Shown: positions 6,824-43,297 of the stretch, piece by piece
How positions within the stretch are numbered: the first letter of the stretch is position 1
Layout: every line of letters begins with the position of its first letter
DNA from: Solirubrobacterales bacterium
GTDB taxonomy: Bacteria > Actinomycetota > Thermoleophilia > Solirubrobacterales > 70-9
Assembly (NCBI GenBank): GCA_009691195.1
Contig: SHVA01000008.1
Location: 1,785-65,784 of the forward strand
Direction: 5' to 3'
DNA length: 64,000 nucleotides
Notes under the pieces: model-generated
What the model was told of the DNA's origin: nothing
Seen by the model: only the letters and a program-made list of their open reading frames with translations
The model's database searches: none
Position numbers and translations under genes: made by a program

Positions 6824-6841
6824 GATTCCCTCCTTTTTCGT

Positions 6842-25660: not shown

Positions 25661-25666
25661 CGCCCA

Positions 25667-26884: not shown

Positions 26885-26922
26885 GCGCGGGGGCGCCCGC
26901 CGCACCTAAGCTTGGCCGCTCC

Positions 26923-28229: not shown

Positions 28230-28233
28230 CGGC

Positions 28234-30254: not shown

Positions 30255-30286
30255 TTTAGGAAAGGTTACAGGCCTAAAAGCTTTCC
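30254..30286. promoter_or_regulatory. AT-rich nested inverted repeats in the marR/crcB divergent spacer (putative MarR operator)
   Basis: TTTTAGG (30254-30260) pairs with CCTAAAA (30273-30279), and GGAAAG (30259-30264) pairs with CTTTCC (30281-30286). This is the only strongly AT-rich stretch in this neighbourhood. Confidence 0.45.
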
Positions 30287-30300
30287 ACAACTGAATAGGT

Positions 30301-30714: not shown

Positions 30715-30766
30715 GCAGGCGCCCTCAGGCGCGGTTCCGCCGCGGCGACAACTATCGTCGCCCGCG

Positions 30767-32107
30767 GTGAGGGAGACAATCGACGCCCAGGTCGACGAGA
30801 GCCATCTCTGGCATCCGTTCACGCAGATGGAGGACTGGGCCGACGACGAGGCGCTGGTGATCGAGCGGGCCGAGGGCTGCGAGCTGATCGACACCGAGGG
30901 TCGCCGCTACCTCGACGGGGTCTCATCGTTGTGGTGCAACGTCCACGGCCACCGCCACCCGCTGATAGACCGGGCGATACGCGACCAACTCGACCGCGTC
31001 GCGCACTCGACCATGCTCGGGCTCTCGCACCCCGGCGCAGAGGAGCTCGCCTCGAGGCTCGTCGAGATCGCACCCCCCGGCCTCTCGCGCGTCTTCTACT
31101 CCGACTCCGGCTCGACCGCCACCGAGGTGGCGCTGAAGATGGCCTTCCAGTACTGGCAGCAGCTCGGCGGCCAGCACGTCCGCCGCAAGTCCTTCGTCAG
31201 CCTGCGCAACGCCTACCACGGGGACACGATCGGATCGGTCTCCGTCGGCGGCATCGACCTCTTCCACGGCAAGTACCGCCCGCTGCTGTTCGGCACCCAC
31301 CAGGCCGAGCCGGGCGACATCGACGAGATGGCGCGGATCGTCGCGACGCACGAGGAGGAGATCGCGGCCGTGATCGTCGAGCCGCTGGTCCAGGGCGCCG
31401 CCGGCATCCTGGTGCACCCGCCCGGCTACCTCCGGGCCGTTCGCGAGATCTGCGACCGGCACGGCCTCTTCCTGATCTGCGACGAGGTCGCGACGGGCTT
31501 CGGCCGGACCGGAACCATGTTCGCCTGCGAGCGCGAGCGGGTGGCGCCTGACTTCCTCTGCCTGGCGAAGGGCCTCACGGGCGGCTACATGCCGCTCGCG
31601 GCGACCCTGACCACCGAGCGGATCTACGAGGGCTTTCTCGGCTCCTACGAGGAGTACCGCACCTTCTTTCACGGGCATACCTACACCGGCAACCCGCTCG
31701 CCTGCGCGGCGGCCATCGCCTGCCTGGACACGTTCAGGGAGGAGCGGACGCTGCTGCGCCTGCAGCCCAAGATCCGAATGCTCGGGGAGATGCTCGACCA
31801 GATGGGCGAGATGCCCGAGGTCGCCGAGGTTCGCCGGCAGGGCTTCATGGTCGGCATAGACCTCGGCGAGCACGACCCGGGCCTCCAGCTCGGTCACCGC
31901 GTCACCCTCGAGGCGCGCCGGCGCGGCGCGATCGTTCGCCCGCTCGGCAACGTGATCGTGTTGATGCCACCGCTGTCGATCTCCAAGCAGGAGCTGGTGA
32001 GGCTGGTCGCGATCACCGGGGCTTCGATTCGCGCCGCCTCCGCGGAGCTGGCCGGCGAGCCGGAGGCGTCGGGGCGCATCGGCGCGGCCCTGCTCGAAGC
32101 GGCGTAG
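30767..32107 (+). CDS. bioA: adenosylmethionine-8-amino-7-oxononanoate aminotransferase
   Basis: LWHPFTQM...YSDSGSTATEVALKMA...DEVATGFGRTG...LAKGLTGGY. GTG start. Confidence 0.9.
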   Translation: MRETIDAQVDESHLWHPFTQMEDWADDEALVIERAEGCELIDTEGRRYLDGVSSLWCNVHGHRHPLIDRAIRDQLDRVAHSTMLGLSHPGAEELASRLVEIAPPGLSRVFYSDSGSTATEVALKMAFQYWQQLGGQHVRRKSFVSLRNAYHGDTIGSVSVGGIDLFHGKYRPLLFGTHQAEPGDIDEMARIVATHEEEIAAVIVEPLVQGAAGILVHPPGYLRAVREICDRHGLFLICDEVATGFGRTGTMFACERERVAPDFLCLAKGLTGGYMPLAATLTTERIYEGFLGSYEEYRTFFHGHTYTGNPLACAAAIACLDTFREERTLLRLQPKIRMLGEMLDQMGEMPEVAEVRRQGFMVGIDLGEHDPGLQLGHRVTLEARRRGAIVRPLGNVIVLMPPLSISKQELVRLVAITGASIRAASAELAGEPEASGRIGAALLEAA

Positions 32108-32829: not shown

Positions 32830-34036
32830 GCGTGAGCTCGACCCCGAGGTCCGCCGCCGGCTGACGGCGGTCGACGCCTCCCTCGCCGGCGAGCCGGTCG
32901 ACCCCGAGCTGGCCGACCTCGCGGCGTTCGCCACCGAGCTCCGCGACGACGCCCCGCCGGTCGATCCGCGCTTCGCCGCGGAGCTGGATGCCCTCGTCGC
33001 CGAGGGCTTCCCCACAGCGCAGCCGGACTTTGGTGGACCCGTGAAGCCGCCTTCGAACAGGGCCAGGACTCGTTTCGCTTCGTTGCACAGGCGCCCCCTG
33101 CTCCCGATTCTCGCCGGCGCGACAACGATCGTGATCGTCGCGGGGGTGGTGGCAGCGACGCAATTCCACGCTGGTACGGGCGACTTCGAGTCCGGCGACT
33201 CGTTGCTCCGCAAGCAGCTCTCCGAGGAGCCCGCGCCGCCGGGCACAGCCGACGTAACAGAGAGCCTTCGTCGGCTGGATGCGAAACGAGGAAGCGACAA
33301 GGCGATCGTCGAGGCCAGCGCGACGAGCGACGCTGCAGCACGGGTAAACCGCCCCCACACCGCCAAGGACCGGCGCTTCGAGCAGCAGGCCGCATCGCTG
33401 ACGCTGTCGGCCGATCCCGCCCAGGTCCAGGACGTCTCCGGCGAGGTTCGGGACGTGGCCGAGCGCTACGACGGCTTCGTCCAGGATTCGGCCGTCAGCG
33501 TCAACGGCGACAGGGCGCGGGCGAGCTTCAGCCTGCTGGTCCCGGCCGCCAACCTGCAGGCGGCGATCTTGGACCTCTCCGACCTCGCCAACGTCACCGC
33601 CAGCGACTTCAACACCGACGACGTCACCGGCAGCTACGCGACCGCGGGCAAGCGCCTCAGCGCCGCCCGGGCCGAGGTGCAGAAGCTGCTCCGCAAGCTC
33701 GAGGACGCGAGCTCGGTGTCAGAGGCGGCAAGCCTGCGCCAGCAGCTCCAGATCGCGCGGGGCGAGCTCGCGTCGGCCCGCGGTGGGCTCCGCGACGTCA
33801 AGCAGTCGGTCAACTACGCGCCGATCAGCCTCACGATCACCGGCAGCGGCGACGGGGACGGCTGGTCGATCGGCGACGCCGCCAAGGACGCCGTGGACGT
33901 GCTCGAGGCGGTCGGCGGAGCGATCCTGATCGCGCTCGCAGTGCTGGTCCCCGTCGGCCTGGTCGGCGGCGTGATCTGGCTGGCGGGGACGCGGCTGGTC
34001 AGGCGCCGTCGCGAGAGCGTGCTCGACCAGGACTGA
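32810..34036 (+). CDS. membrane protein with DUF4349-like extracytoplasmic domain, putative anti-sigma factor
   Basis: It overlaps the sigma gene by 20 nt and has a GAGGAGG RBS. Acidic N-terminal segment, TM helix (LLPILAGATTIVIVAGVVAA), coiled-coil-rich domain and a C-terminal TM helix. No HxxxCxxC motif. Confidence 0.6.
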   Translation: MQMRLRERELDPEVRRRLTAVDASLAGEPVDPELADLAAFATELRDDAPPVDPRFAAELDALVAEGFPTAQPDFGGPVKPPSNRARTRFASLHRRPLLPILAGATTIVIVAGVVAATQFHAGTGDFESGDSLLRKQLSEEPAPPGTADVTESLRRLDAKRGSDKAIVEASATSDAAARVNRPHTAKDRRFEQQAASLTLSADPAQVQDVSGEVRDVAERYDGFVQDSAVSVNGDRARASFSLLVPAANLQAAILDLSDLANVTASDFNTDDVTGSYATAGKRLSAARAEVQKLLRKLEDASSVSEAASLRQQLQIARGELASARGGLRDVKQSVNYAPISLTITGSGDGDGWSIGDAAKDAVDVLEAVGGAILIALAVLVPVGLVGGVIWLAGTRLVRRRRESVLDQD

Positions 34037-34039
34037 GCC

Positions 34040-34225
34040 CTACTCCTCGTAGGGCTCGAAGTCGGTCTTGCGGGCGCCGCAGACCGGGCAGAACCAGTCG
34101 TCGGGGATTTCGGCGAAGGCGGTTCCGGGCGGCACGCCGCCGTCGGGGTCGCCCTCCGCGGGGTCGTAGATGAATCCGCAGGAGGTGCAGATCCATAGCT
34201 TTGCGGTCTCGGTGCCGGCCTCCAT
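34040..34225 (-). CDS. rubredoxin
   Basis: [61 protein letters not shown], with two CxxC pairs. ATG 34225 lies inside ORF 34040-34387. Confidence 0.9.
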
Positions 34226-34281
34226 CGGGCGGGAGAGTAGCGAAGCCTCCCGCGGCGGGTGTCCTCTAGGGTGACGCCGAC

Positions 34282-34941
34282 GTGGCCGGGCGCAGCGGCG
34301 AATCCCCGAAGGACCTTCCGCCCGAGGCCGGCGGCGAGCCACTGCGCGCGCCGGATGAGGAGCCGGCCCAGCCGCGCGCCGCGTCAACGGTGCTCGTCCT
34401 GCGACGCGGCGGTCGCCACAAGGACCGGGGGCTCGAGGTCTGCATGGTCCAGCGCAATCCCGAGGCCCGCTTCATGCCAGGGGTCTGGGTGTTTCCCGGC
34501 GGCGCGGTGGACGACGCCGACGGCAGCGGCGAGGAGGCGAACCGCGTCTGCGCGGTCCGGGAGCTGAGCGAGGAGGCCTCGATGGTGGTCGACCCGGGCG
34601 AGCTGGTCGCCTACTCGCGCTGGATCACCCCGCGGGCGGTGCCTATCCGCTTCGACACCCGCTTCTACCTGGCGCTCGGCCCGGCCCACTCTCCCCCCGA
34701 GGCCGACGGCAGCGAGACCGTCGACGCCGGCTGGTTTGCGCCAAGGGACGCTCTCGACCGCCACGAGCGCGGCGAGATGAGCATCGTTTTCCCCACCATT
34801 AAGCACCTCGAGAGCCTGCTCGAGTTCGCGAGCGCCGATGAGGCGCTGGAGGCGGCGCGCCGCCGAGAGGTCCGCCCCGTCGAGCCCCGCATCGTCGGCG
34901 AGGGCAACCACGCCCGCGTCGTCCTCGACGATCCGGAATAG
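34282..34941 (+). CDS. NUDIX hydrolase family protein
   Basis: Nudix-box-like [28 protein letters not shown]. 219 aa, GTG start. Confidence 0.75.
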
Positions 34942-34949
34942 TCCCGACG

Positions 34950-35252
34950 ATGACGTCGAGCCTTCCGCCAGAAGCGAGGGAAGCCTTCGAGCGCTTCGTC
35001 ACCTGCGAGTACACGACGGTCGCCGGCGCCCGCCAGCCGATCACCTGGCCGCTGACCCCGTACTACTCCGACGGCGGCCCGACGATCGATGGGACGACGG
35101 GCCTCGGCTACCCGAAGAAGGCCGACGACGCCGCCGGCCACCCCAGCGTCTCGAGGCTGTTCTCGGACCCGACCGGGTCCGGGGTCCTCAGCCGCTTCTC
35201 GCGCTTCCGCCGCACCGCCAAGAAACGGCCGGCCGAGCGCGCGGAGGCCTAG
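34950..35252 (+). pseudogene. truncated pyridoxamine 5'-phosphate oxidase (PPOX/FMN-binding split barrel) family gene
   Basis: The N-terminal 75 aa (FVTCEYTTVAGARQPITWPLTPYY...HPSVSRLFSDPTGSG) look like this family. The ORF then ends in an Arg-rich tail (LSRFSRFRRTAKKRPAERAEA), and no other frame continues the domain. Confidence 0.5.
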
Positions 35253-35935
35253 GCCGAAGCGGCGGAGTCCGGAAAAGGCTCCAGCCCGGCGTGCCAGGGA
35301 CCGGGTTGGTAGGGGTGGAGGTTGTCCTCTTCCAGCTCGCGCCGCAGGCGCTCGAAGATGCCACCGGCGGAGTGCAGCGACTGCTTCAGCTCGGCCTCGG
35401 AGCGCTCGCGCATTCGCCAGTGGAAGAAGAGCTGGGCATCGGTGATGCCGAAGTCGACCTCCACCGGGATTCGGGTTATCCAGTCGATGAAGGAGGGGCT
35501 GAACAACTCGCGCAGCGCAATCGGATCGTGGTCGCGGGGGACCGTGGCGATGAACCGCTTGTTGAAGTCAACGCTCTCGAACTCGACTCGCCTTCGGGAG
35601 CGGCGGTCCAGCGTGTCTCCCGCCGTCCGCTCGATCGACTCGACGTTGAAGATCGGCACCACTCGGGCGAGATCGGGCATGTGGGCCTTGGCGAGGACCG
35701 CGTTGGGCAGGACCTCCTTGCGGAACATCTTCCCCTGCTCCCGCTCGTCCGCGTCACAGGACGCCCCCCAGAACCCGTCCACGAGCTCGCCCGTGAGCCG
35801 GTTGCTGCCACCCGGGCAGAGCGCCGCGGGCCCGCCCTTGGGGTTGAGGCCCCCCACCGGCTCGTAGCGCAGGTCGCGAGACCCGGCGTAGGCGGAGACA
35901 AGCCCCGCCCATTCCTGGGCGCCGGCCGCCGGCAT
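35249..35935 (-). CDS. hypothetical protein (228 aa), translationally coupled to Fe-ADH
   Basis: The ATG shares one base with the ADH stop (TGATG). It contains VEFESVDFNKRFIATVPRDHDPIALRELFSPSFIDWI, weakly reminiscent of DUF3137-type proteins. No TM helices. Confidence 0.55.
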   Translation of the reverse strand: MPAAGAQEWAGLVSAYAGSRDLRYEPVGGLNPKGGPAALCPGGSNRLTGELVDGFWGASCDADEREQGKMFRKEVLPNAVLAKAHMPDLARVVPIFNVESIERTAGDTLDRRSRRRVEFESVDFNKRFIATVPRDHDPIALRELFSPSFIDWITRIPVEVDFGITDAQLFFHWRMRERSEAELKQSLHSAGGIFERLRRELEEDNLHPYQPGPWHAGLEPFPDSAASA

Positions 35936-37140
35936 CAGAGGGCCTGCCTGTAGAGCTCCTCGAAGTCCTCCGGAACCAGCTCGCGGGCGTTGGTGAGGCT
36001 GCAGCCGTCGCCCATCGCTCCCTCGACCAGGTCGGCAATCCCCTCCTCGGGCACTCCAACTTCCGAGAGGCGCTGCGGCAGGCCCATGCGAGTGGTCAGC
36101 TCGCCGACCCAGCCGGCCAGAGATCCACCGACATCAGCGTCGGACCCGCCCGCCTCGGCGCCGAGCGACTCGGCGACATCGCGGTAGCGATCAGCGATCT
36201 CGGGGCCGCCCGCCGCGTTGAAGCGGATCACGTGCGGAAGGTTGATCGAGTTCGCGACCCCGTGCGGAACCCCGTACATGGCGCCCGCCGGGTGCGACAT
36301 CGAGTGCGCGGCCCCGAGCCCCGAGGTGCCACCGGCGCCGGGCACGATCGCCAGCGAGGCCGCGACGAGCATGTTCCCCCGGGCCTCCTCGTTGGAGGGG
36401 TCCTCAACCGCCGCGGGCAGGTTGTCTCGCATCATCCGCAGCGCTTGCAGCGCGAAGGCCTCGCCGTGCGGGCTCCACAGGGGGCCCGTGTAGCCCTCGA
36501 TCGCATGCGTCATCGCGTCCATCCCCGTTGCGGCCGCGAGGGCGGCGGGCAGCGTTCGCGTGGACTCCGGGTCGAGGATGGCGAGCCGGGGGAACAGCGG
36601 GAAGTCCGCGATCAGGATCTTCTCCCTGCGCTCGCTGTCCTTGATCACCGCCCCGAAGGAGACCTCCGAGCCGGTACCCGCGGTGGTCGGGATGCAGGCC
36701 AGCGGCGCGACCGCCAGTGGCGCGCCCATGCCCTCGTCCTCACGGGGTAGGGCGTAGATCCCCTCGTAGTCGAGCAGCGAGCCGCCGTGCGTGAAGACGG
36801 CGTTGGCGGCCTTGGCCGTGTCCATCACCGAGCCGCCGCCGACGGCGAGGAAGGAGTCGGCTCCGGCCTCCTTCGCCGCTTCGGCGCAGGCGGCCACGGT
36901 CACAGCCGAGGAGTCCTGAGCGATCTCGGAGAAGACGGCCGCGGGCTCCAACGCCCCATCGGCGAGCCCCTGCTCGACCTTGGCCACGAGGCCCGTCTCG
37001 AGCAGGATCCCGTCGGTGACGATCAGGGGGCGCTTGGCGCCCTCCTTCGCGAACTCGAAGCCGACGCCCTCGATCATCCCGCGGCCGGCGACCACCCGGG
37101 TGGGATGGGCGAACTGGTAGTAGTCCTTGAACTGGCTCAA
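35935..37140 (-). CDS. iron-containing (group III) alcohol dehydrogenase
   Basis: GGGSVMDTAKA motif and His-rich metal site (AHSMSHPAG...HG). TTG start overlapping the SCP2 stop (TTGA). Confidence 0.88.
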   Translation of the reverse strand: MSQFKDYYQFAHPTRVVAGRGMIEGVGFEFAKEGAKRPLIVTDGILLETGLVAKVEQGLADGALEPAAVFSEIAQDSSAVTVAACAEAAKEAGADSFLAVGGGSVMDTAKAANAVFTHGGSLLDYEGIYALPREDEGMGAPLAVAPLACIPTTAGTGSEVSFGAVIKDSERREKILIADFPLFPRLAILDPESTRTLPAALAAATGMDAMTHAIEGYTGPLWSPHGEAFALQALRMMRDNLPAAVEDPSNEEARGNMLVAASLAIVPGAGGTSGLGAAHSMSHPAGAMYGVPHGVANSINLPHVIRFNAAGGPEIADRYRDVAESLGAEAGGSDADVGGSLAGWVGELTTRMGLPQRLSEVGVPEEGIADLVEGAMGDGCSLTNARELVPEDFEELYRQAL

Positions 37141-37556
37141 GCGACGTTGACGAGCTCTGTCTTGCCGTCGGCCTCGAGCATCGCCTTGTAGCGGGGATAG
37201 ACGGGCTTGGTCAGCGGGACGAGCTTGAGGATCTTGGGCACCGGGCCCTTCGCCTTGATCTGGCCACGAGCGAGCGCAACCGTGACGTTGACCTTGCCGA
37301 GCCAGAAGCGATGGGCGGTATCCGCGTCCATGCTCATCTGGACCTCGGGCTCCATCTCCGTCTCACCGAAGTCGACCTGGGAGGGCTGCCCCTCCTGAAG
37401 CCTGGTGGTGATCACCGAGTCGGGGTCGCGGAAGCTGTACTGGATGATCGTGTTCGCCTTGCGGAACTTCGGCGCGAGCTCCTCATCCTCGCCAAGCTGC
37501 TGAATCAGCTTGCCGATCGTGTCGTAGACCTCCTGGTCGCTGCTGAAGTACGCCAA
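37137..37556 (-). CDS. SCP2 sterol/lipid-carrier domain protein
   Basis: 139 aa: ...MSMDADTAHRFWLGKVNVTVALARGQIKAKGPVPKILKLVP. Typical SCP-2 C-terminal pattern. Confidence 0.75.
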   Translation of the reverse strand: MAYFSSDQEVYDTIGKLIQQLGEDEELAPKFRKANTIIQYSFRDPDSVITTRLQEGQPSQVDFGETEMEPEVQMSMDADTAHRFWLGKVNVTVALARGQIKAKGPVPKILKLVPLTKPVYPRYKAMLEADGKTELVNVA

Positions 37557-37618
37557 GTCTCTCTCCTCGTACGTCGCTTTCCTGGCCGAGTGGCCAATCC
37601 TTCCAGAACCAACCGCCT

Positions 37619-38056
37619 CTAGTCGAGGCCCTCTGACTCGGCCTCGGCCTGTCCCGGGGGCGCCTCAGCGATGTAGAAGCGGGTTCGCCCGATCTCCTCG
37701 TCGGCGACACGGACCAGGACCGCGTGGGGGCCCGCCTGGGAGAACGTCAGCCTGGTCCCGAGGGAGAGCACGACGCGCTGGTCCTGACCTTCGATCGAGC
37801 CGGCGGGCCTGCCGGTCTCGAGATCCATCCCGAGCTGGTCCCCGAGGATGCCGCCGTCGGGGTCCTCGGTGTGCAGGGTCAGCTCGTGCTTCATGTTGGT
37901 CTCGCCCCAGGGGACATCGAGCCCGAGGGCGATCCCGAAGCTCCACTCGTAGGGAAGGCTGGGCAGGCGGAGCATGTTCCAGCCCCCGCCCATCAGGTAG
38001 ATCTTTCCGTTGAGCGACTCGCTGTGGTCGTTGAGGACCAGGAAGGCGACGTCCAT
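37619..38056 (-). CDS. hypothetical protein (145 aa)
   Basis: Intact ORF sitting between the TetR and SCP2 genes on the same strand. Normal codon usage. I recognise no motif. Confidence 0.5.
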   Translation of the reverse strand: MDVAFLVLNDHSESLNGKIYLMGGGWNMLRLPSLPYEWSFGIALGLDVPWGETNMKHELTLHTEDPDGGILGDQLGMDLETGRPAGSIEGQDQRVVLSLGTRLTFSQAGPHAVLVRVADEEIGRTRFYIAEAPPGQAEAESEGLD

Positions 38057-38070
38057 CGTTCGAGCCTAGC

Positions 38071-38742
38071 TCAGGCGGGGCCGGAGCCGGCGAACTCGTC
38101 GGCCGGGATCACGCCCGGGTAGAGAGCGCCGGACCAGACCCGGGCGATCGGGTCGATGACCTGCTCTGGGGTGCGCTCACCCCTGGCGAGGTAGATGTAG
38201 CAGCAGCGCTCGTTCATCCAGACCAGCGTCTCGGCCGTGGCGCGAGGGTCGAGCGCACGCGGGATCAGCCCGGCCGCCTGCTCGGAGCGGATGTGGTCCG
38301 CGGTGGCGACGATGAAGCGCTCGGCGATGCCGAGCCAGACCTCGCGGACCTCGGCGTCGTAGGTAGAGACCTCGGTCGCGATCCGTAGCAGCTCGGCGTG
38401 CCCGGCGTAGACCCGGACCACGCCCTCGATCGCCTCCCGCACCAACTCGGCCGGGGGGCCCTCCCCGTGCCACCAGCGATCCGCCATCTCGTAGAGCTCG
38501 CGGTCGGCGTCGCCGAGGGCCGCGAGCAGCAGGTCGTGCTTGTCGCGGAAGTGGAGATAGAAGGCGCTGCGCGAGATCCCGGCGGCGCGGGAGATCTCGT
38601 CGACGGTCAGGTCCCTGAACGAGCCCTGCTCAGCGAGCTTGAGAGCGGCTGCCAGCACCTCGGCGCGCACCCGCTCGCGCTTGCGGCGCCTGGAGTCCCG
38701 ATCGACGGTGGCTCGCGGGGCGGGAGGGCTGCCTGCTTCCAT
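38071..38742 (-). CDS. TetR family transcriptional regulator
   Basis: ATG 38742 lies inside ORF 38071-39780. HTH region VLAAALKLAEQGSFRDLTVDEISRAAGISRSAFYLHFRDKHDLL. Confidence 0.88.
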   Translation of the reverse strand: MEAGSPPAPRATVDRDSRRRKRERVRAEVLAAALKLAEQGSFRDLTVDEISRAAGISRSAFYLHFRDKHDLLLAALGDADRELYEMADRWWHGEGPPAELVREAIEGVVRVYAGHAELLRIATEVSTYDAEVREVWLGIAERFIVATADHIRSEQAAGLIPRALDPRATAETLVWMNERCCYIYLARGERTPEQVIDPIARVWSGALYPGVIPADEFAGSGPA

Positions 38743-38755
38743 GCGGACAGAGTAA

Positions 38756-38803
38756 CGATCTGTCAGACGGAGCGTTAGACAGATCGTCTGACACTTTGTC
38801 AGC
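38756..38803. promoter_or_regulatory. putative TetR operator cluster
   Basis: Perfect 9-bp inverted repeat CGATCTGTC (38756-38764) / GACAGATCG (38778-38786). GTCAGAC (38762-38768) pairs with GTCTGAC (38786-38792). A third, related site TGTCAGC lies at 38797-38803. Confidence 0.55.
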
Positions 38804-38877
38804 AAAGCTGGTAGATTTCCGTGACCCGCAACGTCCGGCAGGCGCCCCGACGCGCGAGCTGCCGAGAGGAGTCGACA

Positions 38878-39804
38878 ATGGCCGAGACACTCGAGGAGCT
38901 TGCTCTCCAGGGCGATCCCGGGACGCTGACCAGCGAGGACCGGGCTTCGAAGATCCAGTTGCTCAACCCCCAGCAGCTCTACGAGCTCTGGGAGAAGCAG
39001 CACTGGCTGGCCCACGAGATCGACTTCTCGGTCGACAGGGAGCAGTGGGCGAACTTCAGCGACGAGGAGCGCGACTACTTCACCTGGGGAATGTCGGGCT
39101 TCTTCATCGGCGAGGAGCGGGTCACGACCCAGTTCTCGGGCCTCCTGATGGCCTACGAGGACGAGTCGGAGGAGGCCTTCCTCGCCACGCAGCAGGTCGA
39201 TGAGGCGCGCCACACCCAGTTCTTCGACCGCTTCTACCGCGAGGTGATCGGCATCGACGACCCCAAGTGGGAGACGAGGCTCGCCCGCGTCCGCGAGGAG
39301 CTCAACGACTCCTTCGCAGAGCTCTTCGACAAGGCCCTGGTCGAGGCCAACCAACGGCTGATTTCCGACCCCTCGAGCATCGAGGCCAAGGTCGACTACG
39401 TGACGATCTACCGCATGGTGATCGAGGGGACGCTCGCCCTCACCGGCCAGTACACGATGACCGACTACCTCGAGAAGAACGAGCTGCTCCCCGGCTTCGT
39501 CGAGGGCTTCAACAAGGTCGCCCGCGATGAGCACCGCCACGTGGCCTACGGCACCTGGTTCCTGAAGCAGAAGTGCGGCTCCGACCCGGAGCTCGGCGCG
39601 CTGATGCAGGCGCGTCTGCAGGAGCTGCTGCCGGTCGCCGGCGGGGTACTCGTCCCCAAGGGCGCCGACCCCAACGACTGGGAGATGCTCGGCTACACCG
39701 CGGCCGAGATCAACGAGTTCGCCTTCAAGGCCCTGACGCGGAGGCTGAAGGCGATCGGGGTACCGCTCGTCGCAGAACACGCGGGCAACGGGGTGGCGGT
39801 CTGA
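38878..39804 (+). CDS. R2-like (ribonucleotide reductase small-subunit fold) di-metal carboxylate oxidase, radical Tyr absent
   Basis: ATG after GAGGAG. Ligand pattern FFIGEE ... VDEARH ... MVIEGT ... RDEHRH. Phe sits 4 residues after the first His (RHTQFF). Confidence 0.75.
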
Positions 39805-39986
39805 TGACCGCCACCCTCGAGGTCACCGCCTGGATCTGTGAGTCCTGCGGCTTCGTCTACGATCCCGCCGACGGTGACCCGGACGGCGGCATCCCCGCGG
39901 GCACCGCCTTCGCCGAGATCCCCGACGACTGGTTCTGCCCCGTCTGCGGGGCCCGCAAGAAGGACTTCGTCCCCTACAGCGGCTAG
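39804..39986 (+). CDS. rubredoxin
   Basis: [60 protein letters not shown]. The ATG shares one base with the R2-like stop (TGATG). Confidence 0.9.
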
Positions 39987-39996
39987 CCCGGCGCGG

Positions 39997-40749
39997 CTAG
40001 CGCCTCTTGTGCTTCTTGGGCGGCCTCGGGAGCTTGAGCGCGCCTGAAACGGCGGCCTCGGCCCGATTGCCCGCGAGATCGGAGATCGCCATGCCCAGCT
40101 TCAGCTTGAGACGGTGGCCGCGGTGCTTCTGCAGGGCGGTGGCCTTGGATGCGAGCGCGCGGGCTCCCCGCTTGGTCAGCGGGAGGGTCACGAACCGCTT
40201 GCCGGCCGAGAGGTAGGTGCGCTCGGCCGTCCCGACCTCGACACCTGCGCTGACGGCGCTGAGGGCGATGTCCGCGGCCTCGCTCGGGTTGACCACCAGC
40301 TGAAGCCTGCGCTTGCCTAGAACCGCCTTGGTCGTGGTGCTGCGCAGCGAGACCGCCCCGGTGGGAGGTATCACGTCGGGCGGCAGCGGCTCGCCCTCGG
40401 CGGTGACCTCGAGGGTGGCCGTCATCTCGGGGTAGCCGGGGTCGTGAAAGAGGTAGGTCCCCTCGCTGAGGAACGGCGCGCCGCGCACGAGGCGCTCGCC
40501 GCCCGCCGCAATCGCCGGCGCCGAGAACAGCGGCGCATCGTCCAGGTCGAGGTCATCGGAGGCGACCGCGTGCTCGAGGAAGGGGTCCCGGTTGGCGAAG
40601 GTGACCAGCGCCCCCTGGTCGATCGTGTAGGTCGGCAGCGCGTACTCCTGGAGGAACACGGCCTTGATCTGGGTGCCGGCGGAGGCGCCGGCGGGGGCGG
40701 CGAGCAGCAGCAGGCAGGCCGCCGCGAGGACGATGTGCGGGCGCTTCAT
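39997..40749 (-). CDS. secreted cupredoxin-like protein with degenerate copper site
   Basis: Signal peptide MKRPHIVLAAACLLLLAAPAGASA. TYTIDQGALVTFANRDPFLEHAV...[20 protein letters not shown] resembles a plastocyanin-like fold, but no Cys is present. Basic C-terminal tail. Confidence 0.55.
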   Translation of the reverse strand: MKRPHIVLAAACLLLLAAPAGASAGTQIKAVFLQEYALPTYTIDQGALVTFANRDPFLEHAVASDDLDLDDAPLFSAPAIAAGGERLVRGAPFLSEGTYLFHDPGYPEMTATLEVTAEGEPLPPDVIPPTGAVSLRSTTTKAVLGKRRLQLVVNPSEAADIALSAVSAGVEVGTAERTYLSAGKRFVTLPLTKRGARALASKATALQKHRGHRLKLKLGMAISDLAGNRAEAAVSGALKLPRPPKKHKRR

Positions 40750-40758
40750 GGCTCTAGT

Positions 40759-40785
40759 CGAAACAACCCGGCCGGGCCGGGGTTG
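40759..40785 (-). terminator. probable intrinsic terminator downstream of sodA
   Basis: On the minus strand, a GC-rich stem CAACCCCGG/CCGGGTTG (one bulge) is followed by TTTCG. Confidence 0.45.
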
Positions 40786-40832
40786 CGGCTGCCGGGCGCC
40801 CCGCCTGCGCCCGGCCGGCCGCCTTCCTCTCG

Positions 40833-41441
40833 TCAGCCCTGTGCGGCGGCGAAGTGCTCGCCGGCCTTGGCCCAGTTGACGACGTTCCACCAGGCGTCGA
40901 GGTAGTCGGGCCGCTTGTTCTGGTACTTGAGGTAGTAGGCGTGCTCCCAGACGTCGACGCCGATGATCGGCGAGTTGCCGTCGGAGACCGGGGTGTCTTG
41001 GTTGGCGGTCGAAACCACGGCGAGGCCAGACCCGTCGTGGATCAGCCACGCCCAGCCGGACCCGAACCGACCGATGCCCGCGTTCTTGAGCTCTTCCTGC
41101 AGCGACGCGAAGTCACCGAACTTGCCGGAGATGGCGGAAGCGAGGTCGCCCTCCGGCTCGCCACCTCCGTCGGGGCTCATGATCTCCCAGAAGAAGCTGT
41201 GGTTCGAGTGGCCGCCGGCGTTGTTGCGCACGGGGCCCTGCTTGTCCGCGGGCAGGCTGGAGAGATTCTGCAAGACCTCGTTGACCGGCTTGTCGGCCCA
41301 CTCGGTGCCCTCGAGCGCGGCGTTCGCCTTGTCGACGTAGGCCTGGTGGTGCTTGTCGTGGTGAACGCGCATGGTGGCCTCGTCGATGTGGGGCTCGAGC
41401 GCGTTGTAGTCGTAAGCAAGATCGGGAACCTCGTATGCCAT
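40833..41441 (-). CDS. sodA: Fe/Mn superoxide dismutase
   Basis: LPDLAYDYNALEPHIDEATMRVHHDKHH...GSGWAWL...DVWEHAYYLKYQNKRPDY. Confidence 0.93.
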   Translation of the reverse strand: MAYEVPDLAYDYNALEPHIDEATMRVHHDKHHQAYVDKANAALEGTEWADKPVNEVLQNLSSLPADKQGPVRNNAGGHSNHSFFWEIMSPDGGGEPEGDLASAISGKFGDFASLQEELKNAGIGRFGSGWAWLIHDGSGLAVVSTANQDTPVSDGNSPIIGVDVWEHAYYLKYQNKRPDYLDAWWNVVNWAKAGEHFAAAQG

Positions 41442-41489
41442 CTCTTCTCCTTCGCTGAAAATTCGATTCTGCGACGTAATCTAGCGGCA

Positions 41490-42206
41490 GTGAAGAGTAG
41501 GCCACCCGGCGGAGGGACCTGGACGGGAGTGCTGGTGACGCTGGGCGGCATCGCGCTCCTGGCTGCGTGCGTGCTCGCCATTCCGCCCCTTCGCGACGCC
41601 TTCCAGAACGCGATCAGCGGCGACCACGACGCGGTGCGCGAGGACCTTCAGAAGCCGGCCGGCGTGGCCCTCGTCATCGGTTTGGCGATCATCCACACGA
41701 TCGTCTGGTACCCGGCCGAGATCCTCGACACGGCCGCCGGCTACGTCTACGGCTTCTGGCCGGCGCTGCCGCTGATCATGGCCTGCTGGGTCGCCTCAGG
41801 GCTGCTCGCGTACATGATCGGCCGCCACGCCGCCCGCCCGCTGCTCTACCGGCTGGTCGGGGAAGAGCGCTTCGAGCGGCTCGAAGCCCTGGTCGAGCGC
41901 GGCGGCGTCACCTTCCTGCTGGTGGCTCGCCTGGTCCCGATCGTCCCCTTCAGCCTCACCGGCTACGTCGCCGGAGCCGCGCGGGTGCCGCTGGGCCGCT
42001 TCACGTGGACCACCGCCGTCGGCTACCTGCCGATCACGGCCTTCTTCATCTACGTCGGAAGCAGGCTCGAGGAGTTGTCACCGACGGACCCGGTGATCCT
42101 GCTGGGCACCGGCGCCCTGCTGCTCTCGGTGCTCGGCGTCCGCTTCCTGACGCCCCGGTTCACTCACGAGCGCGCCGACAGGGCCGACGCGCGCAGGGGC
42201 AGCTAG
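41490..42206 (+). CDS. TVP38/TMEM64 (DedA/VTT-domain) membrane protein
   Basis: GTG 41490 lies inside ORF 40854-42206. ...YPAEILDTAAGYVYGFWPAL...LVARLVPIVPFSLTGYVAGAARVPLGRF. Confidence 0.7.
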   Translation: MKSRPPGGGTWTGVLVTLGGIALLAACVLAIPPLRDAFQNAISGDHDAVREDLQKPAGVALVIGLAIIHTIVWYPAEILDTAAGYVYGFWPALPLIMACWVASGLLAYMIGRHAARPLLYRLVGEERFERLEALVERGGVTFLLVARLVPIVPFSLTGYVAGAARVPLGRFTWTTAVGYLPITAFFIYVGSRLEELSPTDPVILLGTGALLLSVLGVRFLTPRFTHERADRADARRGS

Positions 42207-43297
42207 CCGGCCGGCGCCGGATCCGGCGCCAGCGGCTCGATCGCTGCGAGCCGCCGCGCGAGATCCTCGAGGTCCTGCGCTCGCTCCTCGAGCAGCCGCT
42301 CGGCCGCCTCGTCGAGTCCCCGCAGAGCGGCCGAGCTCGCATCATCGAGCCCGAACCCCGGCGGCAGCGCGATCTGGAAACGGTAGTAGCGAGGGCCCCT
42401 CCCCATCTGCCCGGCGTCGGGCAGTGGTGCGCCGGGCTCGTGGTTGAGCAGAATCTCCGACCAATGGTCCGCGGCATCTGACTGGCCGTCGAGGAACGCC
42501 GCCACCAGCGGCGGCTCCCCGTCGCGCGGCAGGATCCAGCCGAGCTGTCCCCAGCGCCTGACCCGCCGCTGCTCGTATGGCGTCTGGTGCTGGCCGGTTC
42601 CGAGCGAGACGACCAGCAGGTCGTCTGTCGTCAGCGCGGAGCGGCCCTCGCCCACGCGCTTGAGCGCCTCCACGACCGCGGCCACCGTCGGGTTGGCCGA
42701 GAAGACCCCGCCGTCGACCAGCGCGCGGGAGCCGACGCCGTGCGAGGGAAAGTAGGTCGGCGCCGCTGCCGTCGCCAGCGCTGCGTCGATCATCGGTACG
42801 TCGCGGTCGGGCGAGTCGCGGGCGCGCCAGCGCTTGAAGAAGTGCGGCCCCGGCTCGGCCATGTCGTAGGAGGTGACGACCACCTCGCGGAGAGCCTCGG
42901 AGAGGCGGGCGTCGCCGATCCGGTCCCTCAGCACCCGCTCGAGCTCGTCTGCCGAGTAGCGGGGCCCAAGCCAGCCGAAGCCGGTCAGGAGCCGCCGCAG
43001 GAGGCCGACGTGGAAGATGGCCGGCCCGTCGTCGACGTAGAAGCTGGCGAGGTCCTCGCCGCTGAGCCGGGGCCGGCTCGAGCCGCTGGATCGGGGGGCC
43101 GCCAGCCCAAGGGCCAAGAGCCCGCCGGTCGAGGTGCCCGCCAGCAGCTGGAAGCAGTCCGCGATCCGCCTCTCCTGCCCGGCCTCGGCGCTGACCAGCT
43201 GCTCGAGCCGGGCGATCACCCGCGCGGCGATCAGGCCGCGAATGCCGCCTCCGTCAACGGAGAGGATGCGAAAGGGTGCGCCTGCGCCGGGGCTCAA
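42203..43297 (-). CDS. patatin-like phospholipase
   Basis: FRILSVDGGGIRG, AGTSTGG and VDGGVFSANP motifs. TTG 43297 overlaps the stop of the upstream NTF2-like gene (TTGA) and follows AGGAG. Confidence 0.8.
   Translation of the reverse strand: MSPGAGAPFRILSVDGGGIRGLIAARVIARLEQLVSAEAGQERRIADCFQLLAGTSTGGLLALGLAAPRSSGSSRPRLSGEDLASFYVDDGPAIFHVGLLRRLLTGFGWLGPRYSADELERVLRDRIGDARLSEALREVVVTSYDMAEPGPHFFKRWRARDSPDRDVPMIDAALATAAAPTYFPSHGVGSRALVDGGVFSANPTVAAVVEALKRVGEGRSALTTDDLLVVSLGTGQHQTPYEQRRVRRWGQLGWILPRDGEPPLVAAFLDGQSDAADHWSEILLNHEPGAPLPDAGQMGRGPRYYRFQIALPPGFGLDDASSAALRGLDEAAERLLEERAQDLEDLARRLAAIEPLAPDPAPAG

What the first reader, a model, noticed from the sequence alone, without database searches (positions are those of the whole stretch)
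35249..39986. Divergent TetR locus joining SCP2 carrier, Fe-ADH, two unknown proteins and an R2-like oxidase-rubredoxin pair: candidate undescribed lipid-oxidation module
Seen in sequence: five minus-strand genes follow each other closely. They are TetR (38742-38071), a 145-aa unknown (38056-37619), an SCP2-domain protein (37556-37137), a group III Fe alcohol dehydrogenase (37140-35935) and a 228-aa unknown (35935-35249). The gaps are 14 nt, 62 nt, a TTGA overlap and a TGATG overlap. Across a 135-nt spacer full of inverted repeats, the plus strand encodes an R2-like di-metal protein and a rubredoxin, again with a TGATG overlap. Established knowledge: SCP2 domains carry lipids and sterols. R2lox-type proteins bind long-chain fatty-acid ligands and have no assigned physiological reaction. 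Rubredoxins donate electrons to di-iron oxygenases. Inference: the seven genes form one ligand-controlled unit that binds, oxygenates and then dehydrogenates a hydrophobic substrate. I know of no described pathway with this composition.
Basis: partly seen in the sequence, partly recalled or inferred. Interest (0 to 1): 0.72.

Follow-up and report, generated by a model that had tools for sequence, protein, structure and literature searches.

The report
TetR-controlled R2lox–rubredoxin operon beside SCP2 module
The seven genes are real, but they are a lineage-specific patchwork of smaller modules rather than one conserved unit: a repressor-controlled R2lox oxidase with a rubredoxin, next to a separate sterol-carrier/alcohol-dehydrogenase module, whose combination fits the already proposed idea that R2lox enzymes hydroxylate long hydrocarbon chains.

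Summary
The window comes from a Solirubrobacterales MAG.

The seven genes are not a conserved unit.
- Across 80 Thermoleophilia genomes centred on the R2-like gene, DUF6941 and the 228-aa gene never co-occur with it. SCP2+Fe-ADH co-occur in 2/80, rubredoxin is adjacent in 4/80, and a divergent TetR is present in about 22/80.
- Across 80 loci centred on the 228-aa gene, its partner is SCP2 (about 55/80) and the R2-like gene is never seen.

What is robust:
1. An EthR-like TetR, a conserved TGACA-N3-TGTCA operator and an R2lox-family gene. The operator is present in 23/26 loci with the TetR versus 2/62 without. In close relatives the R2lox gene is followed by rubredoxin (6/10) or a GMC oxidoreductase (4/10).
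2. A separate SCP2-(Fe-ADH)-228aa module.

The functional idea still has outside support. The same SCP2 subfamily lies 0.3-10 kb from R2lox on 9/9 Mycobacteriales plasmids, together with ADH, ALDH, CoA ligase and ferredoxin/reductase. There R2lox sits where a P450 sits in sister cassettes.

R2lox with ferredoxin and sterol-carrier clusters, and an alkane-monooxygenase role, are already published. Verdict: a new variant of a known kind, of moderate interest.

The parts
38071..38742 (-). TetR-family repressor with an EthR-type ligand domain (223 aa), divergent from the R2lox gene
   Evidence: Pfam TetR_N 2e-13 + EthR_C 7e-17. The closest solved structure is M. tuberculosis EthR, 3e-17 over the full length. 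An orthologous divergent TetR is present in 26 of 88 R2 loci.
38743..38877 (.). Divergent promoter/operator spacer (135 nt) with nested palindromes
   Evidence: Inverted repeats I2 and I4. It holds the only sigma70-like promoter hit in 35000-40300: CTGACA-18-TAGATT at 38788-38817 on the + strand.
38788..38802 (.). Conserved operator palindrome CTGACActtTGTCAG (consensus T(T)GACA-N3-TGTCA(A/G)), overlapping the -35 of the R2lox promoter
   Evidence: Seen in the intergenic region of loci with a divergent TetR. Present in 23/26 TetR+ loci versus 2/62 TetR- loci, Fisher p = 8e-16. Unique in the 64-kb window.
38878..39804 (+). R2lox-family (R2-like ligand-binding oxidase) protein, 308 aa, Thermoleophilia-specific clade
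   Evidence: PDB sequence search: Mtb R2lox 3EE4 8e-28 and Gk R2lox 2e-25, versus NrdB at 1e-7 or worse. Foldseek ranks 1-34 are all R2lox. Ligands E79/E109/H112/E183/E218/H221 and Y178 are invariant, and V82 is kept. NCBIfam R2lox models are best but below cutoff, 156 vs 194 bits.
39804..39986 (+). Rubredoxin (60 aa), start overlapping the R2lox stop (TGATG)
   Evidence: Pfam Rubredoxin 3e-22. CxxC...CxxC is visible in the sequence. R2-Rbx adjacency is seen in 6/10 close relatives and 4/80 distant ones.
37619..38056 (-). DUF6941 protein (145 aa), a lineage-specific passenger downstream of TetR
   Evidence: Pfam DUF6941 3e-15. Only 30 homologues were found. It is absent from the 80 R2-centred, 80 228aa-centred and 4 close-relative loci tested. 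Homologues lie in unrelated contexts.
37137..37556 (-). SCP2-domain carrier protein (139 aa) of the subfamily found in actinobacterial hydrocarbon-oxidation cassettes
   Evidence: Pfam SCP2. 44% identity (2e-43) to the SCP2 of the R. opacus pROB01 R2lox cluster and 38% (1.5e-35) to the gene next to R2lox on pMyong1. Directly upstream of the 228-aa gene in about 55/80 loci.
35935..37140 (-). Group III iron-containing alcohol dehydrogenase (401 aa), an optional insert between SCP2 and the 228-aa gene
   Evidence: Pfam Fe-ADH + ADH_Fe_C. The closest solved structures are methanol dehydrogenase and FucO lactaldehyde reductase. Present between SCP2 and the 228-aa gene in the window and L085, and in 7/80 metagenome loci.
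35249..35935 (-). Conserved 228-aa protein with no family model, the constant partner of SCP2
   Evidence: At least 2,798 homologues, none with a Pfam domain. No PDB sequence hit. The AlphaFold model is unusable, pLDDT 37. The overlapping SCP2-228aa pair is seen in L081, L086, L087, L102 and most of L088-L167.
34040..34225 (-). Second ('resident') rubredoxin paralogue, divergent from NUDIX (34282-34941 +).
   Evidence: tblastn 77% identity to the R2-coupled rubredoxin and its translation. The NUDIX<->Rbx arrangement is conserved in 29 loci, the window included.

Best explanation
The region is a lineage-specific juxtaposition of independent modules inside a conserved chromosomal block of a Solirubrobacterales clade. 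The block runs bio genes - MFS/MarR - bioA-type aminotransferase - DUF4349 - Rbx<->NUDIX ... SodA - patatin.

Module 1 is a small regulon.
- An EthR-like TetR repressor binds the palindrome CTGACActtTGTCAG, which overlaps the -35 box of the divergent promoter.
- It thereby gates an operon that encodes an R2lox-family dimetal (probably Mn/Fe) oxidase and a rubredoxin whose start overlaps the R2lox stop.
- Inferred mechanism: a hydrophobic effector releases the repressor. Rubredoxin, reduced by a reductase encoded elsewhere, delivers electrons to the dimetal site. That lets the enzyme turn over as an O2-dependent hydroxylase of a long aliphatic chain (an alkane, a fatty acid or a related lipid).
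- In close relatives the rubredoxin slot is taken, or followed, by a GMC flavoprotein. That enzyme would oxidise the alcohol product.

Module 2 is SCP2-(Fe-ADH)-228aa.
- It is a separately conserved, start/stop-overlapping operon. The SCP2 carrier and the unknown 228-aa protein are the constant pair, and the Fe-ADH is an optional insert.
- In this window and a few close relatives it has come to lie next to, and possibly downstream in the same transcript as, the TetR gene.
- The two modules may therefore cooperate here: carrier, then hydroxylase, then alcohol dehydrogenase. Analogous gene sets do so in Mycobacteriales, haloarchaea and Geobacillus.

DUF6941 is a passenger.

Shown: gene identities, operator conservation, the modular structure and the cross-lineage co-occurrence. 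Inferred: metal content, substrate, rubredoxin-to-R2lox electron transfer, TetR effector and co-transcription.
For: Modularity
- R2-centred synteny in 80 genomes.
- 228aa-centred synteny in 80 metagenome loci.
- Ten close-relative loci.
- Contexts without R2.
- DUF6941 contexts.

TetR-operator-R2 link
- A conserved palindrome in loci with 57-80% R2 identity.
- 23/26 versus 2/62 association.
- Unique in the window, and it overlaps the only promoter-like site.
- EthR is the closest solved structure.
- MycoRegNet lists Rv0232-Rv0233 as a predicted operon in M. tuberculosis (PMC2724278), and pMyong1 has TetR-R2lox.

R2lox identity.

Electron carrier and alcohol oxidation
- R2-Rbx overlap in the window, L001, L081, L082, L179 and L182, and adjacency in L014, L019 and L021 in different contexts.
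- R2-GMC in L083/84, L085 and L181, and R2-Rbx-GMC-DUF547 in L182.
- Rhodococcus plasmids carry ADH-(R2lox)-FAD reductase-ferredoxin strings.

SCP2 link
- The same subfamily is involved.
- It lies 0.3-10 kb from R2lox on 9/9 Mycobacteriales R2lox plasmids.
- The same ADH-ALDH-SCP2-CoA ligase cassette sits next to P450 + 2Fe-2S ferredoxin + reductase where R2lox is absent.

Literature
- GkR2loxI alkane depletion activity and its ADH/ALDH/FACL cluster (PMC10867098).
- C16/C18 hydroxy-fatty-acid ligands, haloarchaeal ferredoxin/sterol-carrier clusters and hexadecane induction (PMC9314684).
Against: - No reductase for rubredoxin and no aldehyde dehydrogenase were found among the window genes scanned.
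- Most R2 orthologues in Thermoleophilia stand alone among housekeeping genes (aroKB, aroQ, pepP, ctaG). That fits a core, endogenous role better than a catabolic island.
- R2-coupled rubredoxins are not a dedicated lineage. Those of L081, L082 and L001 group with 'SodA-side' rubredoxins of loci that lack R2, so part of the adjacency may be positional inheritance.
- Synteny counts come from related genomes and are not independent.
- The published alkane-hydroxylase evidence for R2lox is weak: crude lysates and modest depletion, with an E202A/H205A mutant only slightly impaired. Redox cycling of GkR2loxI gave no product from bound fatty acids.
- The Fe-ADH is most similar to short-chain enzymes (methanol DH, FucO).
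- Terminator-like hairpins are no better than shuffled sequence, so transcript boundaries are undetermined.
Confidence: 0.55

Rival explanations
1. All seven genes form one TetR-controlled operon pair that binds (SCP2), oxygenates (R2lox + rubredoxin) and dehydrogenates (Fe-ADH) a lipid, with DUF6941 and the 228-aa protein as integral new components.
For: - Tight spacing and overlaps in the window.
- L102 has TetR-SCP2-228aa co-directional with a 40-nt gap.
- L085 has R2 divergent from SCP2-FeADH-228aa.
- No significant terminator lies between the DUF6941 and SCP2 genes.
Against: - DUF6941 and the 228-aa gene occur 0/80 times near R2.
- R2 occurs 0/80 times near the 228-aa gene, including about 23 loci with more than 3 kb of upstream flank.
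- The genes beyond TetR differ in every close relative.
- DUF6941 contexts are unrelated.
- No second operator copy exists in the window.
Confidence: 0.12
2. Pure synteny with no pathway. R2lox here is a core enzyme acting on endogenous lipids or another substrate. Its neighbours (rubredoxin, SCP2, Fe-ADH) are residents of a conserved chromosomal block that were brought adjacent by local rearrangement and have no functional coupling to it.
For: - The block SodA ... Rbx ... 228aa-NUDIX-DUF4349-AT3 exists without R2 (L150 group, L086, L087).
- Rubredoxin phylogeny follows position rather than R2 coupling.
- Distant R2 orthologues sit among housekeeping genes.
Against: - R2-Rbx start/stop overlap recurs in several genomes, and R2-Rbx adjacency also occurs in non-syntenic contexts (L014, L019, L021).
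- L182 has R2-Rbx-GMC in one string.
- R2lox recurs independently with FeS carriers, ADH and the same SCP2 subfamily in Mycobacteriales. The literature reports the same for haloarchaea.
Confidence: 0.25
3. An oxidative-stress module. The ferritin-like dimetal protein and the rubredoxin act like a split rubrerythrin (peroxide or O2 reductase) alongside the nearby SodA and NUDIX genes.
For: - SodA lies 1-3 kb downstream in 10/10 close relatives.
- A NUDIX<->rubredoxin pair is conserved.
- From general knowledge, rubrerythrins combine a ferritin-like di-iron domain with a rubredoxin-like domain.
Against: - The protein's sequence and fold match R2lox rather than rubrerythrin, and it keeps the Val/Tyr cross-link pair.
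- The regulator is EthR-like, which implies hydrophobic effectors.
- GMC oxidoreductase replaces or joins rubredoxin in relatives.
- SodA adjacency is explained by block synteny.
Confidence: 0.07
4. A bona fide class I ribonucleotide reductase beta subunit, as many database annotations state.
For: The Pfam family is Ribonuc_red_sm. JGI and NCBI name relatives 'ribonucleoside-diphosphate reductase beta chain'.
Against: - R2lox 8e-28 versus NrdB 1e-7 or worse in the PDB sequence search.
- Foldseek ranks 1-34 are R2lox.
- NCBIfam NrdB models score 41 bits or less against cutoffs of 237 or more.
- No conserved large-subunit neighbour was found in the 80 loci whose neighbours were clustered.
Confidence: 0.01

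Closest known systems
R2-like ligand-binding oxidases (MtR2lox Rv0233, PDB 3EE4/4AC8; GkR2loxI, PDB 4HR0; SeR2lox; SaR2loxI/II)
   Same: - Ferritin-like R2 fold.
- All six metal ligands and the Val-Tyr cross-link pair are present.
- These proteins are the best sequence and structure matches.
- A TetR regulator is adjacent, as in the predicted Rv0232-Rv0233 operon and on pMyong1.
   Different: - Only 26-35% identical to characterised members, and below every NCBIfam R2lox cutoff.
- It forms a Thermoleophilia-wide clade (more than 480 genome hits).
- It lacks the long acidic C-terminal extension of the Mycobacteriales proteins.
- Its start/stop-overlap pairing with rubredoxin was not found in the searchable literature.
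R2lox-centred hydrocarbon-oxidation clusters: G. kaustophilus GK2769-GK2782 (PMC10867098); haloarchaeal R2lox/ferredoxin/sterol-carrier clusters (Kumar et al. 2020, as cited in PMC9314684); Rhodococcus pROB01/pRB11/pR8L1 and Mycobacterium pMyong1 clusters (seen here)
   Same: - R2lox with an FeS electron carrier, an alcohol dehydrogenase and an SCP2 carrier of the same subfamily.
- A TetR regulator on pMyong1.
- A proposed long-chain aliphatic substrate.
   Different: - The carrier is rubredoxin rather than ferredoxin + reductase.
- The dehydrogenase is Fe-ADH (or GMC in relatives) rather than NDMA-dependent ADH.
- No ALDH or adjacent CoA ligase.
- The parts are not a conserved cluster within Thermoleophilia.
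AlkB-AlkG-AlkT and CYP153-ferredoxin-reductase alkane hydroxylase systems
   Same: - Works like them: an O2-activating hydroxylase fed by a small FeS protein, followed by ADH.
- In Mycobacteriales the ADH-ALDH-SCP2-FACL cassette is shared between P450-based and R2lox-based versions.
   Different: - The hydroxylase is a soluble ferritin-like dimetal protein. It is not a membrane histidine-rich di-iron AlkB and not a haem P450.
- No rubredoxin reductase lies in the window.
EthR-EthA (M. tuberculosis TetR repressor of a divergent monooxygenase gene)
   Same: - An EthR_C-type TetR, divergent from an oxygenase gene.
- Palindromic operator sites in the shared spacer.
   Different: - The controlled enzyme is an R2lox, not a flavin Baeyer-Villiger monooxygenase.
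- The operator is a compact TGACA-N3-TGTCA palindrome that overlaps the -35 box. Binding was not tested.

Membership tests
[quoted passage not shown] | Ferritin-like R2 fold, closer to R2lox than to RNR beta subunits | tested here: met
   phmmer against PDB gives R2lox 8e-28 to 4e-21 and NrdB at 1e-7 or worse. Foldseek on the AF2 model (pLDDT 71) puts R2lox at ranks 1-34, TM 0.66-0.75.
[quoted passage not shown] | Six metal ligands: Glu, Glu-x-x-His, Glu, Glu-x-x-His | tested here: met
   E79, E109/H112, E183 and E218/H221 are invariant in alignments with annotated R2lox proteins and with clade members down to 46% identity.
[quoted passage not shown] | Val and Tyr residues that form the ether cross-link | tested here: met
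   V82 and Y178 align with V71/Y162 of MtR2lox. The cross-link itself cannot be tested in silico. One clade member (L075) has Ile at the Val position.
[quoted passage not shown] | Scores above the curated NCBIfam R2lox thresholds | tested here: not met
   Best model NF006200 scores 156.5 bits against a cutoff of 194, and the other four models are also below cutoff. This is a divergent clade, annotated as 'hypothetical' or 'RNR beta'.
[quoted passage not shown] | Heterodinuclear Mn/Fe cofactor and a bound long-chain fatty-acid ligand in a hydrophobic channel | not testable with these tools
   This needs metal analysis and native mass spectrometry or crystallography.
Class I ribonucleotide reductase beta subunit (NrdB/NrdF) | Pairs with an alpha subunit gene and scores as NrdB | tested here: not met
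   NCBIfam NrdB models score 41 bits or less against cutoffs of 237-525. No recurrent large-subunit neighbour in the 80 loci whose neighbours were clustered. The radical tyrosine and the C-terminal R1-binding tail were not examined.
TetR/EthR-type repressor with a divergent target gene | TetR_N HTH plus EthR_C ligand domain, and a palindromic operator in the shared spacer that co-varies with the presence of the regulator | tested here: met
   Pfam. EthR 3e-17. Palindrome in 23/26 TetR+ loci versus 2/62 TetR- loci. DNA binding and the effector were not tested.
Rubredoxin | About 55-aa protein with two CxxC(G) knuckles | tested here: met
   C-E-S-C-G and C-P-V-C-G are visible in the sequence. 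Pfam 3e-22. NCBIfam RubredRD scores 82.8 bits, just under the cutoff of 90.
Three-component alkane hydroxylase (hydroxylase + rubredoxin/ferredoxin + NAD(P)H reductase) | A dedicated flavoprotein reductase encoded with the system | tested here: not met
   No rubredoxin-reductase-type flavoprotein was found among 37 window genes scanned with Pfam. Rhodococcus R2lox clusters do encode an FAD oxidoreductase + ferredoxin.
R2lox hydrocarbon-oxidation gene cluster (R2lox + FeS carrier + SCP2 + ADH + ALDH + acyl-CoA ligase) | R2lox, FeS carrier, SCP2 of the shared subfamily and an ADH within 10 kb | tested here: met
   The window genes span 35935-39986. SCP2 homology is 2e-43 and 1.5e-35 to the cluster SCP2s.
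R2lox hydrocarbon-oxidation gene cluster (R2lox + FeS carrier + SCP2 + ADH + ALDH + acyl-CoA ligase) | Aldehyde dehydrogenase and fatty-acid-CoA ligase in the cluster | tested here: not met
   No ALDH was found among the window genes scanned. The only AMP-binding enzyme is at 48246-50072, 8 kb away and separated by unrelated genes.
R2lox hydrocarbon-oxidation gene cluster (R2lox + FeS carrier + SCP2 + ADH + ALDH + acyl-CoA ligase) | Cluster composition conserved among orthologues in the same lineage | tested here: not met
   SCP2+ADH lie near R2 in 2/80 genomes. R2 lies near the SCP2-228aa pair in 0/80. In 10 close relatives the adjacent arrangement occurs in 2.

The most novel reading that the evidence does not exclude
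Rubredoxin (with a GMC flavoprotein in sister genomes) is the long-sought physiological redox partner of an R2lox. The TetR-gated R2lox-rubredoxin operon would then be a soluble Mn/Fe hydroxylase system for long aliphatic chains that is near-universal in Thermoleophilia. That class is named after the obligately n-alkane-utilising Thermoleophilum, for whose genome the literature lists a rubredoxin but no classical hydroxylase partner (PMC6741124). In that reading the conserved SCP2-228aa pair is a new two-protein lipid or hydrocarbon handling device that feeds it.
Probability: 0.25. Interest if true: 0.65.

Novelty: new variant of a known kind. Interest (0 to 1): 0.42.

Why it matters
The physiological reaction and electron donor of R2lox have been open questions since the first structure in 2009. 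Published functional evidence is thin.

This locus and its relatives offer natural operons that name candidate partners:
- rubredoxin;
- GMC oxidoreductase;
- in Rhodococcus, ferredoxin plus reductase;
- a specific SCP2 subfamily.

They also offer a defined TetR/operator pair whose effector should resemble the substrate. In Mycobacteriales, R2lox sits in the same ADH-ALDH-SCP2-CoA-ligase cassette slot as an alkane-type P450. That is comparative support for a hydroxylase role, and it makes the question directly testable by reconstitution.

The practical lesson for annotation is that this clade is mislabelled as 'RNR beta' or 'hypothetical'. The 228-aa partner of SCP2 is a large family (at least 2,798 members) with no model at all.

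Tried and rejected
1. AlphaFold2 of the 228-aa protein with a 32-sequence MSA gave pLDDT 36.8. The model is unusable, so no fold search was run.
2. PDB sequence searches for the 228-aa and DUF6941 proteins gave only chance-level hits.
3. An Rfam scan of 33900-41500 found nothing meaningful.
4. Terminator-like hairpins after Rbx, at the DUF6941 stop and after the 228-aa gene fold no better than shuffled sequence (z = +1.1, -1.7, +0.2). Transcript boundaries therefore cannot be inferred.
5. A rubredoxin NJ tree was built to ask whether R2-coupled copies form a dedicated lineage. They do not, but a ~55-aa protein gives low resolution.
6. I looked in the 64-kb window for a rubredoxin reductase, an ALDH and an adjacent CoA ligase. 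None were found among the 37 proteins scanned. A few small ORFs were not scanned.
7. The bona fide NrdB reading was rejected.
8. A split-rubrerythrin or oxidative-stress reading was considered because of SodA and NUDIX, and judged unlikely.
9. I could not retrieve Kumar et al. 2020 (the haloarchaeal clusters) from the library. It is cited only through PMC9314684.
10. Haloarchaeal and Streptomyces plasmid R2-like loci showed other contexts: fatty-acid synthase genes, MFS, ketosynthase. These were not pursued.

Full report
**1. Observation**

The window is about 70% G+C. The R2-like protein is 100% identical to a protein of a Solirubrobacterales MAG.

- TetR (TetR_N + EthR_C).
- SCP2.
- Group III Fe-ADH.
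- An R2-like protein whose best NCBIfam models are all 'R2-like ligand-binding oxidase'.
- A rubredoxin.

The '145-aa unknown' is a DUF6941 protein. The 228-aa protein has no family model.

The spacings and overlaps are as reported: 14 nt, 62 nt, TTGA, TGATG, a 135-nt divergent spacer and TGATG. The spacer contains nested palindromes.

**2. What the R2-like protein is**

- Against PDB sequences, the best hits are M. tuberculosis R2lox (8e-28) and Geobacillus R2lox (2e-25). True NrdB proteins start at 1e-7.
- An AlphaFold2 model (pLDDT 71, pTM 0.71) finds R2lox structures at Foldseek ranks 1-34. NrdB/R2c appears only from rank 35.
- The six metal ligands (E79, E109, H112, E183, E218, H221) and the cross-link tyrosine Y178 are invariant against annotated R2lox proteins and within the clade down to 46% identity. 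V82 is retained.
- The protein is nevertheless divergent. It is 26-35% identical to characterised members and scores below all NCBIfam R2lox cutoffs.
- It represents a large Thermoleophilia clade: more than 7,400 metagenomic relatives and more than 480 genome hits.

**3. Is the seven-gene neighbourhood conserved? No**

*R2-centred view.* I fetched 80 species-level genomes carrying an orthologue (46-74% identity, all Thermoleophilia) and mapped the window's proteins onto ±10 kb.

| Neighbour of R2 | Loci out of 80 |
|---|---|
| DUF6941 | 0 |
| 228-aa gene | 0 |
| SCP2 + Fe-ADH | 2 (L010, L011; 2.7 and 5.7 kb away) |
| Rubredoxin directly downstream | 4 |
| Divergent TetR | about 22 |

Unbiased clustering of all neighbouring ORFs found the TetR as the only recurrent adjacent gene. 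Otherwise the R2-like gene is usually monocistronic among housekeeping genes: aroK/B, aroQ, pepP, ctaG and a GT4 glycosyltransferase.

*Close relatives.* Ten loci with 75-100% R2 identity were compared.

| Feature | Loci out of 10 |
|---|---|
| SodA nearby (block synteny) | 10 |
| Rubredoxin after R2 | 6 |
| GMC oxidoreductase after R2 | 4 (L182 has R2-Rbx-GMC-DUF547) |
| Divergent TetR | about 6 |
| SCP2-FeADH-228aa adjacent | 2 (window and L085) |

L085 lacks the TetR altogether. The genes beyond the TetR differ in every case.

*Reciprocal view.* The 228-aa family has at least 2,798 members and no Pfam model. In 80 metagenome loci centred on it:
- SCP2 is directly upstream in about 55.
- Fe-ADH is inserted between the two in 7.
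- NUDIX<->rubredoxin-DUF4349-aminotransferase follows downstream in nearly all loci with enough flank.
- The R2-like gene is never present, including about 23 loci with more than 3 kb of upstream sequence.

L086 and L087 show the same pattern on long contigs.

DUF6941 has only 30 detectable homologues, and they lie in unrelated contexts.

The window therefore lies in a clade-specific syntenic block in which small modules have been shuffled.

**4. What is robust: the TetR-operator-R2lox regulon**

- Every inspected locus with the divergent TetR carries a palindrome of the form T(T)GACA-N3-TGTCA(A/G) just upstream of the R2-like gene.
- Quantitatively, it is present (one mismatch or fewer) in 23/26 TetR-positive loci and 2/62 TetR-negative loci (Fisher p = 8e-16). 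The loci are phylogenetically related, so this p-value overstates independence.
- In the window the element is CTGACActtTGTCAG at 38788-38802. It is unique in 64 kb.
- It coincides with the -35 hexamer of the only sigma70-like promoter match in the region.
- The regulator's closest solved relative is EthR, a repressor of a divergent monooxygenase gene with a lipid-like effector tunnel (3e-17).
- A regulator next to R2lox also occurs in mycobacteria: the predicted operon Rv0232-Rv0233 (PMC2724278) and TetR-R2lox on pMyong1.

**5. The rubredoxin**

The R2-coupled copy is one of two paralogues in the window. In this clade, rubredoxins occupy two 'resident' positions, one divergent from NUDIX and one on the SodA side, even where R2 is absent. 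R2-coupled copies are not monophyletic in a low-resolution tree.

Against pure hitch-hiking:
- The stop/start overlap recurs (window, L081, L082, L179, L182).
- R2-Rbx adjacency also occurs in non-syntenic contexts (L014, L019, L021).
- L182 strings R2-Rbx-GMC together.

I read this as a plausible but unproven redox partnership. No paper in the library mentions R2lox together with rubredoxin.

**6. Outside support for the functional idea**

Searching annotated plasmids with the window's proteins gave the strongest independent evidence.

| Plasmid | Gene order |
|---|---|
| R. opacus pROB01 | NDMA-ADH - R2lox - FAD oxidoreductase - ferredoxin - ALDH - SCP2 - fatty-acid-CoA ligase, co-directional |
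| pRB11 and pR8L1 | ADH - reductase - ferredoxin - R2lox |
| pMyong1 | TetR - R2lox - 'hypothetical' - CoA ligase - ADH |

- The window's SCP2 is a full-length homologue of the pROB01 SCP2 (44% identity, 2e-43) and of the pMyong1 'hypothetical' protein (38%, 1.5e-35).
- All 9 Mycobacteriales plasmids with an R2lox carry this SCP2 subfamily 0.3-10 kb away. These represent about four independent architectures.
- Where R2lox is absent, the same ADH-ALDH-SCP2-CoA-ligase cassette sits beside a P450 with a 2Fe-2S ferredoxin and an FAD reductase (R. erythropolis PR4 pREL1, M. chubuense NBB4, M. intracellulare).

R2lox thus occupies the hydroxylase slot of a hydrocarbon or fatty-chain oxidation cassette. 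In the window the functional roles are filled by non-orthologous parts: rubredoxin for ferredoxin, and Fe-ADH or GMC for NDMA-ADH.

**7. Literature**

- R2lox proteins co-purify with C16/C18 hydroxy-fatty acids, and their function is 'yet to be established' (PMC9314684).
- That paper already notes haloarchaeal clusters of R2lox with ferredoxin and sterol carrier/binding proteins, and induction by hexadecane (citing Kumar et al. 2020).
- A 2024 paper claims GkR2loxI is an alkane monooxygenase within an ADH/ALDH/CoA-ligase/beta-oxidation cluster. The evidence is modest crude-lysate data, and no electron donor is named (PMC10867098).
- Thermoleophilum album, type genus of the class, grows only on C13-C20 n-alkanes. 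Its genome analysis lists a rubredoxin, a flavin monooxygenase and an AlmA-like protein as alkane-degradation genes (PMC6741124).

**8. Mechanism proposed (inference)**

1. A hydrophobic effector releases the EthR-like TetR from the -35-overlapping palindrome.
2. R2lox and rubredoxin are co-expressed.
3. Rubredoxin, reduced by a reductase encoded elsewhere, re-reduces the dimetal site. None was found in the window.
4. The enzyme hydroxylates a long aliphatic chain.
5. The alcohol is oxidised by a GMC enzyme (relatives) or the Fe-ADH (here), and SCP2 shuttles the hydrophobic species.

Weak points:
- No ALDH or reductase is present locally.
- The Fe-ADH resembles short-chain enzymes.
- Most orthologues are solitary core genes.
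- Transcript boundaries are unresolved.

**9. Verdict**

- **Observation:** confirmed.
- **Interpretation:** partly supported. It is wrong about a single seven-gene unit and about DUF6941 and the 228-aa protein belonging to it. It is right that this is an R2lox rather than an RNR subunit, that it is TetR-controlled, and that carrier, FeS protein and alcohol-oxidising enzyme are plausible co-workers.
- **Novelty:** a new variant of a known kind. It consists of a Thermoleophilia R2lox clade with a defined TetR operator and rubredoxin or GMC partners.
- **Interest:** moderate (0.42). The main value is that it points to testable redox partners and an effector-sensing regulator for an enzyme family whose function is still unsettled.

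Noticed in passing
window 34040-34225 (-): A second rubredoxin paralogue (61 aa, 77% identical to the R2-coupled one), divergent from the NUDIX gene at 34282-34941. The NUDIX<->rubredoxin divergent pair is conserved in 29 loci counting the window, independently of R2lox.
   Followed up: yes
window 35249-35935 (-) and 37137-37556 (-); L086, L087, L102, L088-L167: SCP2 and the 228-aa protein form a widely conserved pair with overlapping stop/start. The 228-aa family has at least 2,798 members, no Pfam/NCBIfam model and no PDB relative. In L086 the pair follows four MlaD/Mce-like genes. Its function is unknown, and AF2 with a shallow MSA failed.
   Followed up: partly
L168 (R. opacus pROB01), L170, L172, L176 (R. 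erythropolis pREL1), L177, L178: In Mycobacteriales plasmids, an ADH-ALDH-SCP2-fatty-acid-CoA-ligase cassette is combined either with P450 + 2Fe-2S ferredoxin + reductase or with R2lox + ferredoxin + reductase. This looks like a hydroxylase 'slot swap'. I found no description of it in the searched literature.
   Followed up: partly
L169 6089-6499 (M. intracellulare subsp. yongonense pMyong1, WP_015388832.1): A gene annotated 'hypothetical protein' directly downstream of R2lox is a clear SCP2-subfamily homologue (38% identity, 1.5e-35 to the window's SCP2). This is an annotation gap.
   Followed up: yes
L182 126-3571; L083 4074-6657; L085 2596-5237; L181 8001-10689: In close relatives, a ~555-567-aa GMC-family oxidoreductase follows the R2lox gene, overlapping it in L083/L084 and taking the slot rubredoxin holds in the window. 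L182 has R2lox-rubredoxin-GMC-DUF547 in one string.
   Followed up: partly
L005, L010, L011 (about +910 from the R2 start): A second, shorter (~242-260 aa) R2-like paralogue lies directly downstream of the R2lox orthologue on the same strand, forming a tandem R2lox pair.
   Followed up: no
window 39997-~40800 (-): An ORF of about 230-270 aa with no Pfam hit lies between the rubredoxin and SodA (40833-41441 -). Pfam-less genes of similar length (225-246 aa) occupy the same position next to SodA in L081, L082, L085, L179, L180 and L181. Their homology to the window ORF was not tested, and the true start was not determined.
   Followed up: no
window 24497-32107: A biotin-synthesis gene set: BioB-like radical SAM 24497-25660, a 405-aa BioF-position gene 25667-26884 (inferred from synteny with L085, not scanned here), a 207-aa gene, a BioD-position gene 27546-28229 (inferred likewise) and a class III aminotransferase 30767-32107. 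It is interrupted by an MFS transporter/MarR pair (28234-30359). The same order is seen in L085.
   Followed up: no
window 669-12465, 21028-23238, 42203-43612, 50649-52295: The wider window is rich in lipid-related genes: three MMPL transporters (one with a sterol-sensing-domain hit), two acyl-CoA dehydrogenases, two patatin-like phospholipases and an AMP-binding enzyme (48246-50072). No link to the R2lox regulon was established.
   Followed up: no
L019 and L017 (upstream of R2): These are the only two loci with the TGACA-N3-TGTCA palindrome (one mismatch or fewer) but no divergent TetR. L019 has a TetR homologue 4.5 kb downstream, which suggests the regulator can act from a distance.
   Followed up: no
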